Shown one piece after another: positions 12,401 to 15,400 of a stretch of DNA of 55,937 nucleotides. Origin of the DNA: a virus. Taxonomy: Duplodnaviria > Heunggongvirae > Uroviricota > Caudoviricetes. How positions within the stretch are numbered: position 1 is the stretch's first letter; every line of letters begins with the position of its first letter. The position numbers are program-made. The DNA is taken from the IMG/VR virus record IMGVR_UViG_2872192773_000004, one strand, 5' to 3'.

Positions 12401-15400
12401 CTGAACAGGCTCGCAAGGACTGGCAAAGCGCCCGCAAAAAACTCTCGAGAGTAAAGGTGAGGAAACCGGTTGTTGTTGATCCGGACCTTATCTGGTCATT
12501 ACCTGACGGAGAAATACGCCGCTACGACAGGCGCCTGAATATAATCTGTCGCGAGTGCCGGAAGAGCGAAGCTATGCAGCGTGTACTGGCTTTCTATCAG
12601 GGTAATTTTCAGGAGGCGATACTGTGAATGAAATTAGCTATCAGGCTTCAATTACCGCTGGCATTCGCATCAAAGGAGAGGAGCATGGAAATAAAACCAG
12701 AAGATGAGTTAAGCAATATCGTTTTATTTCCGATAAAAGAGGATGACCCTCGTAATCAGGTTAATTTTCTTTATAAGCCATCGGAAAGACCATATTGCCA
12801 TCACGCCTCTGTACGGGTTGACGAAAAAGAGCGTCAGGTCCGCTGTAAAATCTGCGGTGCGGTTGTGGAGCCGTTTGACTGGATGCTCTCTGTGGCAAAA
12901 AGAGAAACCAGACTGGCAGATGATGTAAGGCTATTGCGCCAGGAGGAACAGGAAAGGCGGAGAAATATAGAAAAGCTGATACAGATTGAGCGTAACGCGA
13001 AAGCGCGGATACGCAGGGCGACAAAATCCAGAACTGAATAATTAAATTTAGCACTGTTAAAAATTTAATCCTTAACCGGAGGGATTTCTGCACCCTCAAA
13101 TCATCAGGAGACCGCCCGAAAGGGCGGGGAGCAGTCACACATCTGTTTCCGATAGCCCCGTTCTAATGCTACACTCTTTGATATTTTTATGACCTCAATA
13201 AACATATTTATGACAGTTGCTGATTTCAAACGGCCCAAATTGGAGCTCCCAAACGGGGCAAACAAACTACTACTGCACTCTTGCTGTGCTCCATGTTCCG
13301 GTGAGGTGATGGAGGCGCTTCAGGCCTCGGGAATCGACTACACCATCTTTTTCTACAACCCGAACATTCATCCTCAGAAAGAGTATTTAATTCGTAAGGA
13401 TGAGAATATTCGCTTTGCTGAACAACACGGCGTGCCGTTTATTGATGCTGATTACGACACAGACAACTGGTTTGAACGAGCCAAAGGAATGGAATGGGAG
13501 CCCGAACGAGGGATCCGTTGCACCATGTGTTTTGACATGCGTTTTGAGCGGACAGCGCTGTACGCCGCTGAAAATGGTTTCAGTGTGATCAGCAGTTCAC
13601 TGGGCATTTCACGCTGGAAAAATATGCAGCAGGTTAACGACTGTGGGCGGCGAGCCGTCGCGCATTATCCGGGCATGGTGTACTGGGATTATAACTGGCG
13701 CAAGCAGGGCGGCTCGTCCCGTATGATTGAAATCAGCAAGCGCGAAAAATTCTATCAGCAGGAATATTGTGGCTGTGTGTATTCTCTGCGCGATACCAAT
13801 CTACACCGCAAATCTCAGGGACGCCCTCTTATCAAAATTGGTCAACTCCACTACGGTAAAGAAGAGAAGGAGTGATTTTATGGGGCACCTTTCTGATTGA
13901 TTTCATATTGGCGAGGTAAGTAGAATGACTGCGGGTGCTTGAGGCTATCTGCTTCAGGCATGAACACCAAAAGGCAGATAGAGAAAAGCCCCAGTTAACA
14001 TTACGCGTCCGGCAAGACGCTTAACATTAATCTGAGGCCAATTTCATGCTTTGCACATGTAGGTTAGCCTCTTACATGCCGAAAGGCAAGGAGAAGCAGG
14101 CTATGAAGCAGCAAAAGGCGATGTTAATCGCCCTGATCGTCATCTGTTTAACCGTCATAGTGACGGCACTGGTAACGAGGAAAGACCTCTGTGAGGTACG
14201 AATCCGAACCGGCCAGACGGAGGTCGCTGTCTTCGTAGACTACGAATCCAGGAAGTAAGAGTGACCGGGTGGGGAGCTGATCCCATCCCCGCCCACCTCT
14301 GATGTGTCAGGCATCCTCAACGCACCCGCACTTAACCCGCCCATCGCTGTGATCTCTCAGCGTTTCGGCGGGTTTTTTGTTGTTTATTTCCGGTGAATTT
14401 GATTCGCGCACCTTCGCAGATAGAATCGACTCACTTAAGTAGCGCGCAGGGAGAAGAGGGATGGACCCCGAACAGGGGAGAGCTATTTATCTGGAAGGAT
14501 TCTGAAGATGAAAATCGAAGAATTGCGTGAAATTTTTAGTGAAAATGGCCTCTATGCTGTGCGCGTTGAGAATGGAGCGATTGTCAGCCATTGCCGCATT
14601 AGATGTTTGCAATCTCAACAAAGGAAGAGCGGTGCTGTGTTATTTTATTTTTGTAATGGACTTCTGACGGACGGTTTTATTTTGCGTGAGGACGAATTTG
14701 TCACATCATTACGGGTTTTGAAAAAGATTGGTTTTAAGGCTGGTTTTCTGCTTTTGCTGAAGAATAAACTCATCTACAATCTTGAGCAGGATTGAACTCC
14801 TGCTGTGTAACACCGTGCCACCGGAGAAAGCCGATGGCACATATACAACTGGTCAAACAAACCTCTTCCGGATTACTTCTCCCGGCGACGCCGGAGAGTT
14901 GCGATTTTCTGCATCAAATCAAAATAGGTGAGTGGATACACGCAGACTTTAAGCGTGTGCGTAACTACGCATTCCACAAGCGTTTTTTCAAACTCCTGCA
15001 ACTGGGTTTCGTTTACTGGACTCCGGTCGGTGGGGCGATCACGCCTCGCGAACGAAAACTGGTGTCCGGTTTCGTTGATTACCTGTGTGAATCAGTAGGC
15101 CGGGAACATACGCCAGCTCTGAGCGAAGCGGCAGAGCAATATCTGAATACAGTTGCGACACGCAGAACCCGTGATACGGCATTGCTAAAGTCGTTTGAGG
15201 CTTGAGGTGTACTGGCAATAGCGGACACTACCATTTGTTCTTTTTTTAAGCAGTCATCTGATGATATTTTTCCCTGAAGGCTGCCGGGGAGATATTCCCC
15301 AGACGAGAGTGACGACGCTGACGATTGTAGAAAATCTCAATGTATTCCCGTATTACTGAGATGGCTTCATCCCGGTTATTAAAACGATAGTGGCTCAGGC

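What the first reader, a model, noticed from the sequence alone, without database searches (positions are those of the whole stretch)
14046..14379. hok/mok-type toxin locus with a 3' hairpin, embedded between the QueH-like gene and the nin region
A 51-aa ORF matches the Hok/Gef family closely; an overlapping upstream frame has the position of mok. A long hairpin plus T-tract follows at 14335-14379. An antisense sok RNA is expected on the opposite strand near 13980-14110 but I cannot define its promoter by eye.
Basis: partly seen in the sequence, partly recalled or inferred. Interest (0 to 1): 0.45.

Follow-up and report, generated by a model that had tools for sequence, protein, structure and literature searches.

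The report
Complete hok/mok/sok toxin-antitoxin locus
This is an intact copy of the well-known hok/sok "host-killing" toxin and antisense-RNA antitoxin module, closest to hokW-sokW of Shiga-toxin phages. It sits in a decaying lambda-like prophage, so it is a correct but ordinary finding.

Summary
Window 13897-14379 holds a complete type I toxin-antitoxin locus of the hok/sok family.

- **Toxin:** a 51-aa Hok ORF at 14103-14258 (Pfam HOK_GEF, 4e-23).
- **mok:** an upstream start at 14046, in the same frame as hok, not a different one.
- **Leader:** it matches Rfam RF01794 at 117 bits against a cut-off of 59. The match is on the hok-sense strand.
- **End pairing:** the 5' end (13933-13944) pairs with a 3' element (14315-14327). 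This is the tac/fbi pairing that defines hok mRNAs.
- **Terminator:** a two-tier hairpin plus T-run at 14334-14379.
- **Sok:** a 71-nt antisense RNA maps to 14054-13984 on the minus strand. Its promoter hexamers are TTGCCT-17-TAACCT at 14089-14061.

The locus is about 92% identical to hokW-sokW of phages 933W and Sp5, which has been shown experimentally to work as a toxin-antitoxin pair.

Small extras: the Sok 5' tail region is hypervariable among relatives, the mok frame is not conserved, codon 47 sits in a full TadA editing motif, and the terminator loop carries a ~21-nt insertion.

Novelty is low.

The parts
13897..13926 (+). hok promoter-like site, TTGATT-18-TAGAAT. It places the mRNA start near 13933.
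   Evidence: Consensus scan, 9 of 12 matches. The -10 TAGAAT is kept in most relatives while the -35 region varies.
13933..14379 (+). Predicted full-length hok (mok-hok) mRNA, about 447 nt.
   Evidence: The Rfam sok/hok-leader model starts at 13933. MFE is -187.7 kcal/mol, z -7.45, with the two ends paired. The 3' end is set by the terminator.
13933..13944 (+). tac element (5' end, GGGUGCUUGAGG).
   Evidence: It pairs with 14315-14327 in the single-sequence MFE and in the RNAalifold consensus of 45 loci. Entropy is 0.01 bit per position.
13951..13961 (+). Partner of tac in the nascent-transcript (metastable) hairpin.
   Evidence: Folds of 13933-13985, 13933-14060 and 13933-14300 pair 13935-13945 with 13951-13961. 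This matches the metastable structure described for R1 hok (PMC9841398).
13986..13992 (+). ucb, the anti-SD of mok (AAGCCCC).
   Evidence: In the full-length fold this region pairs with the mok SD region, and the pairs are invariant in 45 loci. It can pair with tac over 7 bp around one bulge, at 1.9 kcal/mol above the MFE of the truncated RNA.
13984..14054 (-). Sok antisense RNA, 71 nt. It has a 15-nt single-stranded 5' tail (14054-14040), a hairpin (14039-13988) and a UUUU end.
   Evidence: Coordinates are transferred from the sokW feature of AF125520 through an indel-free alignment. Fold is -28.6 kcal/mol, z -4.71. It covers the mok SD and start codon.
14061..14089 (-). sok promoter: -35 TTGCCT (14089-14084), 17-nt spacer, -10 TAACCT (14066-14061).
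   Evidence: Read from the sequence. The hexamers are identical to 933W and nearly invariant, with a constant 17-nt spacer in 45 loci. In Sp5, replacing this -10 removed the antitoxin effect (PMC8621323; primer YO-421). It falls below the threshold of the consensus scan.
14034..14037 (+). mok Shine-Dalgarno sequence (GAGG), 8 nt before the 14046 ATG.
   Evidence: Read from the sequence. Invariant in relatives.
14046..14258 (+). mok reading frame, 70 codons, in frame with hok and sharing its stop.
   Evidence: ORF list. The arrangement is the same as in the annotated mokW/hokW and mokC/hokC pairs. The ATG is kept in 51 of 53 distinct loci, but the frame relative to hok varies.
14069..14093 (+). 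Hairpin that sequesters the hok SD. The anti-SD CUCUU (14069-14073) pairs with AGGAG (14089-14093).
   Evidence: RNAalifold helix 5, five pairs, 100% paired and invariant in 45 loci. It lies inside mok, so ribosomes translating mok must open it.
14103..14258 (+). hok toxin gene, 51 aa: MKQQKAMLIALIVICLTVIVTALVTRKDLCEVRIRTGQTEVAVFVDYESRK.
   Evidence: Pfam HOK_GEF 4.3e-23 and PHROG 251 1.3e-32. It differs from HokW in 1 of 51 residues and from K-12 HokD in 5 of 51.
14240..14246 (+). CUACGAA, the TadA (A-to-I) editing motif. The A at 14242 in the Tyr47 codon would recode Tyr to Cys.
   Evidence: Read from the sequence. TACG is invariant in 45 loci. A 51-nt fold predicts a 7-nt loop. Editing of the homologous Tyr is reported for K-12 hokC, hokD and hokE (PMC5630033, PMC12214031). 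The YTACGAA motif is from PMC12255301.
14267..14294 (+). 3'-UTR hairpin, the probable stop for 3' trimming.
   Evidence: MFE fold. It shows the clearest compensatory changes, at 3 of its 6 pairs.
14296..14299 (+). Candidate dcb (CCUC), which pairs with the mok SD in the alternative fold of the truncated RNA.
   Evidence: Constrained fold. Prediction only.
14302..14314 (+). 3' segment that pairs with the mok start region (14046-14058) in the full-length mRNA.
   Evidence: MFE and RNAalifold helix 4. It is 97% paired, but the 5' side is the variable patch, so support is partial.
14315..14327 (+). fbi element (CCUCAACGCACCC), which pairs with tac. C14321 is bulged.
   Evidence: 12 pairs, 99.8% of cells paired in 45 loci. 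The only frequent change is at the bulged base.
14334..14379 (+). Intrinsic terminator. The outer stem is AACCCGCC/GGCGGGUU, the inner stem is CGCUG/CAGCG, followed by U6.
   Evidence: Fold -22.8 kcal/mol, z -4.9. Relatives, including K-12 hokD, have the same outer stem with a short loop. The window clade carries a ~21-nt insertion at 14343-14363. 933W lacks this terminator.

Best explanation
[quoted passage not shown] The proposed mechanism runs as follows.

1. **Closed mRNA.** A roughly 447-nt mRNA is made from a promoter at 13897-13926 and ends at the terminator at 14334-14379. In the full-length RNA the first 12 nt (tac) pair with 14315-14327 (fbi). The mok start region pairs with 14302-14314. 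The mok SD is held by an upstream anti-SD (ucb, 13986-13992). The hok SD is held by an anti-SD inside mok. The RNA is therefore stable but not translatable and not open to Sok.
2. **Activation.** Slow 3' trimming back to the 14267-14294 hairpin would remove fbi. The 5' end could then re-pair with ucb, which frees the mok SD.
3. **Coupled translation.** Ribosomes starting at 14046 then read through and open the hok SD. This yields the 51-aa membrane toxin and, because the frames coincide, possibly a 70-aa extended form.
4. **Antitoxin.** The short-lived 71-nt Sok RNA (14054-13984) is made constitutively from a promoter inside mok. It pairs through its free 5' tail with the mok SD and start region, blocks mok translation and so hok translation, and marks the duplex for RNase III.
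5. **Killing.** Toxin appears only when Sok supply stops, for example after loss of the DNA, a transcription block or prophage induction.
6. **Possible extra gate.** Full toxicity may also need TadA editing of Tyr47 to Cys.

Shown here: the sequence elements, their complementarity and their conservation. Inferred from R1 hok/sok and Sp5 hokW-sokW: transcription starts, 3' processing, RNase III cleavage, toxicity and editing.
For: **Family matches**
- Pfam HOK_GEF 4.3e-23.
- Rfam RF01794 117 bits against a gathering score of 59, spanning 13933-14108 and ending on the hok AUG.

**RNA structure**
- The full-length MFE fold pairs the 5' end with the 3' element, z -7.45.
- An independent RNAalifold consensus of 45 distinct loci recovers the same end pairing, the ucb-mok SD pairing and the hok SD hairpin.
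- 99.3% of cells are paired against 35-42% when partners are slid. There are 50 double-sided changes against 17.7 +/- 3.7 in shuffles, 0 of 500 reaching the observed value.
- Sok folds as a free 5' tail, a hairpin and a U-tail.

**Homology to characterised loci**
- The locus is about 92% identical to 933W/Sp5 hokW-sokW, with identical sok promoter hexamers.
- In Sp5, HokW is toxic. sokW expressed from this promoter neutralises it. Mutating the -10 abolishes protection. RNase III and Hfq contribute (PMC8621323).

**mok behaviour**
- The mok ATG is kept in 51 of 53 distinct loci.
- Its frame relative to hok is 0 in 41 loci, +1 in 7, and a short 19-codon ORF ending at the hok start in 3.
- This fits the R1 result that translation of mok matters rather than its product (PMC9841398).

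**Alternative fold**
- The tac/ucb alternative fold of the truncated RNA lies only 1.9 kcal/mol above the MFE and pairs the mok SD with a 3' CCUC.
Against: - No expression data exist for this window.
- The sok promoter is weak by consensus (-35 4 of 6, -10 3 of 6) and is not reported by the scan.
- Most helices, including tac/fbi and ucb/SD, are invariant among the close relatives used. They give conservation but no covariation.
- That structure was derived from the same alignment, which favours it.
- The MFE of the truncated RNA keeps the mok SD closed and forms the metastable 5' hairpin rather than tac/ucb. The activating switch is therefore possible but not predicted outright.
- Chromosomal hok loci tested earlier did not give post-segregational killing (summarised in bioRxiv 10.1101/2025.08.07.668861).
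- The host prophage is broken by IS elements. The induction-linked role shown for Sp5 may not apply here.
Confidence: 0.88

Rival explanations
1. The locus is intact in sequence but physiologically silent. It would be a relic carried by a decaying prophage that no longer kills under any natural condition, like the E. coli chromosomal hok loci reported as inactive.
For: - The prophage is interrupted by several IS copies, including IS600 in the neighbouring NinB-like gene.
- Earlier work found that chromosomal hokA, hokB and hokC loci gave no post-segregational killing and no rifampicin activation.
- The stem closing the putative TadA loop has an A-C mismatch in this allele compared with 933W.
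Against: - Every known regulatory element is present and unbroken.
- This contrasts with K-12 hokD, where homology starts only about 13 nt before the hok ATG and the whole leader is missing.
- It also contrasts with relatives L007 and L035, which have lost the mok ATG.
- The nearly identical hokW-sokW is active (PMC8621323).
Confidence: 0.1
2. This is an orphan toxin gene without a working antisense partner. The minus-strand 'promoter' would not be used, and control would rest only on mRNA folding.
For: The consensus scan finds no minus-strand promoter. The -10 TAACCT matches only 3 of 6 positions.
Against: - The same hexamers and the 17-nt spacing are conserved in 45 loci.
- In Sp5 they drive a detectable sokW RNA whose loss unmasks toxicity.
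- The predicted RNA has the canonical Sok architecture and a U-tail terminator.
Confidence: 0.02
3. The molecular mechanism is the same, but the biological role is not prophage stabilisation. It could help lysis and phage release on induction, as shown for Sp5. It could also act as abortive-infection defence against other phages, as reported for R1 hok/sok against T4.
For: - In Sp5, sokW disappears and HokW appears after RecA-dependent induction, and deleting the locus halves phage release.
- In the window, hok lies in the sense direction inside the early-right gene block, between QueH and the nin-like genes. Induced read-through would run against the sok promoter. That last step is inference.
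- The R1 locus lowered T4 plating (cited).
Against: The window's prophage looks defective: terminase and other genes are split by IS elements in the near-identical FDAARGOS_943 copy. A phage-release role may therefore be moot. No data are available for defence.
Confidence: 0.3

Closest known systems
hokW-mokW-sokW of Stx2 phages 933W and Sp5/VT2-Sakai (AF125520, AP000422; Takada et al. 2021, PMC8621323)
   Same: - About 92% nucleotide identity from the tac element to fbi.
- Hok differs at one residue (R50 in the window, E50 in HokW).
- mok is in frame and 70 codons long.
- The Sok hairpin and the sok promoter hexamers are identical.
- The CUACGAA motif at Tyr47 is the same.
   Different: - The Sok 5' tail and mok codons 2-4 differ at about 7 of the first 17 nt.
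- The -35 region of the hok promoter differs.
- The 3'-UTR hairpin has compensated changes.
- The window has an intrinsic terminator directly after fbi, which 933W lacks.
- The window locus lies in the nin region on the early-gene strand. In 933W it lies near the right end of the record on the opposite strand.
hok/mok/sok (parB) of plasmid R1, the paradigm for the family
   Same: All named elements have counterparts: tac/fbi end pairing, ucb as anti-SD of mok, a metastable 5' hairpin, mok-hok translational coupling, and Sok with a free 5' tail plus terminator hairpin (description in PMC9841398).
   Different: - HokW is reported as 44% identical to R1 Hok.
- DNA similarity to plasmid loci is limited to a 47-nt core at 14061-14107, covering the sok promoter and the hok translation start.
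- R1 mok is out of frame with hok (my recollection of the R1 sequence; consistent with plasmid Mok being annotated as a separate DUF5431 protein). Here the frames coincide.
- R1 is on a plasmid, where post-segregational killing has been demonstrated.
hokD (relF) of the Qin cryptic prophage, E. coli K-12
   Same: - The toxin is 46 of 51 residues identical. This is why PGAP names the near-identical RefSeq copy 'HokD'.
- The 3' UTR and fbi are the same, and the terminator has the same outer stem.
- It is also located in a lambdoid prophage.
   Different: - K-12 hokD has lost everything upstream of the hok SD to relBE: tac, ucb, the Sok target, the mok start and the sok promoter.
- The window locus is complete.
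- K-12 has UUACGAA rather than CUACGAA at the editing site.
hokC/mokC/sokC (gef) of E. coli K-12
   Same: mokC and hokC share a stop codon, so mok is in frame. sokC is antisense over the mok start.
   Different: It belongs to a different Hok subfamily, sits at a chromosomal non-prophage site, and is flanked by IS186 in K-12.

Membership tests
[quoted passage not shown] | Small (about 50 aa) Hok/Gef membrane toxin ORF | tested here: met
   Pfam PF01848 81.1 bits against a cut-off of 22. PHROG 251 at 1.3e-32. NCBIfam Hok subfamily at 55 bits is below its cut-off of 73.
[quoted passage not shown] | Conserved structured leader, scored by the Rfam RF01794 covariance model | tested here: met
   117 bits against a gathering score of 59, full model 1-157, at 13933-14108. 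The match is on the + strand only, so the model matches the hok-sense leader, whose complement contains Sok.
[quoted passage not shown] | Long-range pairing of the mRNA 5' end (tac) with a 3' element (fbi) | tested here: met
   12 pairs between 13933-13944 and 14315-14327, with one bulged base. Found in the MFE fold and in the consensus of 45 loci, 99.8% paired. The pairs hardly vary, so this is conservation rather than covariation.
[quoted passage not shown] | Leader ORF (mok) with its own SD that is translated across the hok start | tested here: met
   GAGG at 14034-14037 and ATG at 14046, with a 70-codon ORF. The ATG is conserved in 51 of 53 distinct loci while the frame varies.
[quoted passage not shown] | mok SD sequestered by ucb in the full-length mRNA, and hok SD sequestered inside mok | tested here: met
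   Both helices are predicted in the single-sequence and the consensus folds. All pairs are invariant.
[quoted passage not shown] | Refolding of the 3'-trimmed mRNA into a tac/ucb stem that frees the mok SD | tested here: inconclusive
   A 7-bp tac/ucb pairing is possible and costs only 1.9 kcal/mol over the MFE. The MFE itself keeps the closed form.
[quoted passage not shown] | Cis-encoded antisense Sok RNA with its promoter inside mok, a free 5' tail, a terminator hairpin, and coverage of the mok translation start | tested here: met
   Position transferred from the annotated sokW and fold checked. Promoter hexamers are identical to the mutationally tested sokW promoter. The consensus scan is negative. 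Transcription itself was not tested.
[quoted passage not shown] | Toxicity of Hok, neutralisation by Sok, RNase III cleavage of the duplex, slow 3' processing | not testable with these tools
   Known for R1 (PMC9841398) and in part for hokW-sokW (PMC8621323). No data exist for this allele.
hokW-sokW subtype of lambdoid prophages | Close sequence identity over the whole regulatory unit, including the in-frame mokW | tested here: met
   91.8% identity over query positions 34-458 to 933W and VT2-Sakai. The alignment confirms this. mok is 70 aa and in frame in both.
hokW-sokW subtype of lambdoid prophages | Same genomic position and same 3' end as in 933W/Sp5 | tested here: not met
   The window locus lies between QueH and the NinB-like gene and has a terminator. 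The 933W locus lies at 58.4-58.8 kb of 61.7 kb, and its sequence diverges after fbi.
TadA-edited hok mRNAs (Tyr to Cys recoding) | TAC Tyr codon inside TACG, or the extended YTACGAA motif, presented in a hairpin loop at the position of the second periplasmic Cys | tested here: met
   CUACGAA at 14240-14246 equals the tRNA-Arg2 anticodon loop (loop sequence from my own knowledge). TACG is invariant in 45 loci. A 7-nt loop is predicted, but its stem is weakened by an A-C mismatch in this allele. Motif definitions come from PMC5630033 and PMC12255301.
TadA-edited hok mRNAs (Tyr to Cys recoding) | Actual A-to-I editing of the transcript | not testable with these tools
   This needs RNA-seq compared with DNA from the source strain. 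K-12 hokD is edited at about 6% (PMC12214031).

The most novel reading that the evidence does not exclude
The 21-nt patch at 14038-14058 encodes both Sok's single-stranded 5' recognition tail and mok codons 2-5. It may act as an exchangeable specificity cassette. Among 45 otherwise very similar loci it shows 16 haplotypes, while the adjacent 21 nt show one. The haplotypes are combined with different toxin C-termini. This would let several hok/sok copies coexist in one genome without one Sok silencing another's toxin. E. coli genomes carry a median of 2 and up to 9 matching places.

In addition, toxin potency in this prophage subtype may be set by host TadA, through a perfect tRNA-Arg2 anticodon-loop mimic at Tyr47.
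Probability: 0.35. Interest if true: 0.35.

Novelty: already known. Interest (0 to 1): 0.12.

Why it matters
The finding adds little that is new. hok/sok is the textbook type I toxin-antitoxin system. hokW-mokW-sokW has been annotated on phage 933W and was shown experimentally to be a working pair in prophage Sp5 in 2021. Hok genes are already known to be enriched in prophages.

The practical value is in annotation. RefSeq copies of this allele carry only a 'hokD' CDS, although the locus is complete, unlike K-12 hokD. The Rfam 'sok' hit marks the sense leader rather than the antisense RNA.

Three side observations give cheap, testable leads for people working on type I systems: the hypervariable Sok tail, the non-conserved mok frame, and the full TadA motif.

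Tried and rejected
- **Promoter and terminator scan of 13800-14500.** It found the hok promoter but no minus-strand promoter and no terminator. Both misses come from the scan's thresholds. The sok -10 matches 3 of 6 positions, and the terminator loop is longer than 8 nt. Neither miss counts as evidence of absence.
- **Out-of-frame mok of the kind I recall for R1.** No + strand ORF of 20 aa or more other than the in-frame one overlaps hok. By eye, the -1 frame is open only from 14063 and has no start codon.
- **Direct DNA alignment to R1/F-type plasmid loci.** Only a 47-nt core at 14061-14107 aligns. Comparison of the named elements with R1 therefore rests on the Rfam model and on published descriptions.
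- **Fold of the 3'-truncated mRNA.** It did not adopt the open tac/ucb form spontaneously. A constrained fold was needed.
- **Genome-collection scan for the terminator with a variable loop.** It returned only two species representatives, E. coli ECMA0423 and Shigella flexneri SFBU1023, both with the long loop. This helped place the window but gave no distribution.
- **NCBIfam.** The window Hok is below the cut-offs of both the Hok subfamily and the HokA models, so it gives no finer name.
- **Rfam permissive-threshold scan of the locus.** It found nothing further of note.
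Full report
**1. What is in the sequence**

The + strand of 14103-14258 encodes a 51-aa peptide (MKQQKAMLIALIVICLTVIVTALVTRKDLCEVRIRTGQTEVAVFVDYESRK).
- It matches Pfam HOK_GEF at 81.1 bits, E 4.3e-23.
- It matches PHROG 251 'MokW-like host killing' at 1.3e-32.

An ATG at 14046 is preceded by GAGG at 14034-14037. It opens a 70-codon ORF that ends at the same stop codon. The 'mok' position is therefore occupied, but by an in-frame extension of hok. No other upstream + strand ORF of 20 aa or more overlaps hok.

Rfam's 'sok' model (RF01794) matches 13933-14108 with 117 bits against a gathering score of 59 (E 4.8e-26).
- The match is on the + strand only.
- It starts at GGGUGCUUGAGG and ends on the hok AUG.
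- The model therefore recognises the sense leader of hok mRNA. The real Sok RNA is part of its complement.

**2. The transcript and its fold**

A promoter-like site, TTGATT-18-TAGAAT (13897-13926), places the mRNA start at about 13933.

- 14334-14374 forms an 8-bp outer stem and a 5-bp inner stem, followed by T6.
- Its energy is -22.8 kcal/mol, z -4.9.

Folding 13933-14379 gives -187.7 kcal/mol, z -7.45, with 0 of 100 shuffles as stable. In that fold:
- The first 12 nt pair with 14315-14327 (CCUCAACGCACCC, one bulged C).
- The mok start region (14046-14058) pairs with the adjoining 14302-14314.
- The mok SD pairs with an upstream GCCCC (13988-13992).
- The hok SD (14089-14093) pairs with CUCUU (14069-14073) inside mok.

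These are the tac/fbi, ucb/SD and SD-sequestering helices described for R1 hok mRNA (PMC9841398).

The nascent 5' part folds into a hairpin between 13935-13945 and 13951-13961. This corresponds to the metastable hairpin of the R1 model.

For an RNA trimmed to 14300, the MFE keeps the closed form. A fold with tac paired to ucb costs only 1.9 kcal/mol more and pairs the mok SD with CCUC at 14296-14299, a dcb-like box. The activating switch is therefore feasible but not demonstrated.

**3. The antisense RNA**

Phage 933W carries annotated mokW, hokW and sokW features (AF125520). The window aligns to it without indels between the Sok 3' end and the mok start. This places Sok at 14054-13984 on the minus strand.

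That 71-nt RNA folds as a 15-nt unpaired 5' tail, a long hairpin and UUUU (-28.6 kcal/mol, z -4.7). This is the canonical Sok architecture. It is complementary to the mok SD and start codon but not to the hok SD.

Upstream on the minus strand lie -35 TTGCCT (14089-14084), a 17-nt spacer and -10 TAACCT (14066-14061).
- These hexamers are too weak for the consensus scan.
- They are identical to those of 933W.
- They are nearly invariant, with constant spacing, in 45 relatives.
- In Sp5, replacing this -10 abolished protection against HokW. The replacement is shown by primer YO-421, which reads CCGGCTCGCCTCTTAC where the wild type reads TAGGTTAGCCTCTTAC (PMC8621323).

**4. Relatives and conservation**

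The locus is about 92% identical to hokW-sokW in 933W, VT2-Sakai and many Stx phages.
- It has matches in 4713 of 5426 complete E. coli genomes, with a median of 2 places and up to 9 per genome.
- Only two genomes, FDAARGOS_943 and FDAARGOS_944, are 99% identical or more.
- The flanks match Shigella flexneri SFBU1023 and E. coli ECMA0423 at about 99.3%, including the IS insertions.

From 80 IMG/VR loci plus the annotated ones I extracted 52 distinct sequences. Forty-five distinct full units were aligned.

RNAalifold recovered the same architecture independently. Counting pairs on that alignment gave:
- 99.3% of cells paired, against 35-42% for slid partners.
- 50 double-sided changes, against 17.7 +/- 3.7 in shuffles (0 of 500).

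Compensatory changes are concentrated in the tac-adjacent stem-loop (AU to GC in 16 loci) and in the 3'-UTR hairpin (3 of 6 pairs).

The key long-range helices are almost invariant. That supports constraint but not covariation. The structure was also derived from the same alignment, which flatters it.

**5. How it most likely works**

The full-length mRNA is closed at both ends. It is neither translated nor bound by Sok. After 3' trimming, the 5' end can capture ucb and release the mok SD.

Ribosomes translating mok then melt the hok SD hairpin, and Hok is made. Sok blocks the mok start, and the duplex is cut by RNase III. Because Sok is unstable, any stop in its synthesis lets the stable mRNA pool produce toxin.

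The steps from transcription onward are inferred from R1 (PMC9841398) and Sp5 (PMC8621323).

One supporting observation comes from the relatives. The mok ATG is kept in 51 of 53 distinct loci, but its frame is not:
- 41 loci are in frame with hok (70 aa).
- 7 are in the +1 frame (68 aa).
- 3 have a 19-codon ORF that ends in an AUGA overlap with the hok start.

What is conserved is ribosome passage, not a Mok protein.

**6. A probable extra layer**

Hok has genome-encoded Cys15 and Cys30. At the position of the second periplasmic cysteine it has Tyr47, encoded by UAC.
- The codon lies inside CUACGAA (14240-14246).
- This is the full seven-base loop of the tRNA-Arg2 anticodon arm and fits the YTACGAA motif of bacterial mRNA editing (PMC12255301).
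- TACG is invariant in all 45 relatives, although neighbouring codons vary.
- A 51-nt fold puts the motif in a 7-nt loop.

TadA edits the homologous Tyr of K-12 hokC, hokD and hokE. In HokB, the editing-dependent disulfide raises toxicity (PMC5630033, PMC12214031).

Editing of this transcript is inferred, not shown. In this allele the closing stem has an A-C mismatch that 933W lacks.

**7. Differences from the closest known loci**

Compared with hokW:
- The window differs in the Sok tail and mok codons 2-4.
- It has compensated changes in the 3'-UTR hairpin.
- It has a terminator directly after fbi, which 933W lacks.
- It lies between QueH and a NinB/Orf-like gene on the early-gene strand. In 933W the locus is near the right end of the phage on the other strand.

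Many relatives, including K-12 hokD, share the terminator's outer stem with a short loop. The window clade has a ~21-nt insertion (14343-14363) that forms the inner stem.

PGAP calls the near-identical RefSeq copy 'hokD'. In K-12 hokD, however, homology begins only about 13 nt upstream of the ATG, because relBE replaces the whole leader. In organisation the window locus is hokW-like, not hokD-like.

**8. Variable patch**

Per-position entropy over the relatives is close to zero in several elements:
- tac;
- the Sok hairpin;
- the sok -35;
- the hok start region.

It peaks in the loop of the 5' stem-loop (13963-13972) and over 14043-14062.

The 21 nt at 14038-14058 show 16 haplotypes, against one haplotype for 14017-14037. 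Identical haplotypes occur with different Hok C-termini.

This patch is the Sok 5' tail and its target. A role in keeping co-resident copies from cross-reacting is plausible but untested.

**9. Verdict**

- mok is in frame with hok.
- Sok is at 13984-14054 on the minus strand.
- The Rfam hit is on the sense strand.

The system is a known kind and essentially a known allele. Interest is low.

Noticed in passing
window 15203-16466, also 940-2176, 27922-28976 and 30287-31370: These are IS600-like copies. The copy at 15203-16466 splits the NinB/Orf-like DUF1367 gene, of which 14792-15205 retains only profile positions 1-123 of 198. The same gene is intact in E. coli FDAARGOS_943.
   Followed up: partly
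window 2410-3658, 5393-6641 and about 17102-18350: A 1249-bp insertion sequence occurs three times, once inverted. Each copy carries ORFs of 112 and 279 aa. Together with the IS600 copies, this shows the prophage is heavily degraded. The flanks match Shigella flexneri SFBU1023 at about 99.3%.
   Followed up: partly
window 19695-19771 and 19796-19883 (+): Rfam matches to isrK (58 bits) and, immediately after it, the C4 antisense RNA (75 bits). This is the arrangement of a P1/P7-type antisense immunity or anti-Q control region.
   Followed up: no
window 25025-25332 (+): A cluster of four tRNA genes lies downstream of the nin/Q region. In the near-identical FDAARGOS_943 copy they are annotated as Ile, Arg, Thr and Gly.
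   Followed up: no
window 29835-29951 (-): ALIL pseudoknot (116 bits), the programmed-frameshift element of an IS3-family transposase.
   Followed up: no
window 14399-14426 and 14508-14795 (+): A second TTGATT-16-TAGAAT promoter-like site has the same hexamers as the hok promoter. It precedes a 95-aa ORF with no Pfam or NCBIfam match, only PHROG 340 of unknown function.
   Followed up: partly
window 14240-14246 (+): The Tyr47 codon of hok lies in CUACGAA, the full TadA / tRNA-Arg2 anticodon-loop motif. TACG is invariant in 45 relatives. The 2017 editing study stated that, among the K-12 hok genes, only hokB has the full loop identity.
   Followed up: partly
window 14038-14058; loci L003-L082: The Sok 5' tail and mok codons 2-5 show 16 haplotypes among 45 close relatives, next to a 21-nt stretch with a single haplotype. 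Haplotypes are recombined with different Hok C-termini.
   Followed up: partly
loci L017, L018, L070 (19-aa mok); L034, L048, L073, L074, L077, L081, L082 (+1 frame mok); L007, L035 (no mok ATG): Among close relatives the mok frame relative to hok is not conserved. Two loci have lost the mok start, and L007 has also had most of its leader replaced.
   Followed up: yes
window 14343-14363: A ~21-nt insertion in the loop of the hok terminator creates a second, inner stem. It is present only in the window clade (FDAARGOS_943, L003, L007, Shigella flexneri SFBU1023, E. coli ECMA0423). Other relatives and K-12 hokD have a short loop.
   Followed up: partly
window 14061-14107: This 47-nt core covers the sok promoter, the hok anti-SD/SD hairpin and the hok start. 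It is the only part that aligns at DNA level (about 89% identity) with most of the distant plasmid hok loci listed from 1523 matching plasmid records. There the overlapping ORF is annotated as a DUF5431 family protein.
   Followed up: no
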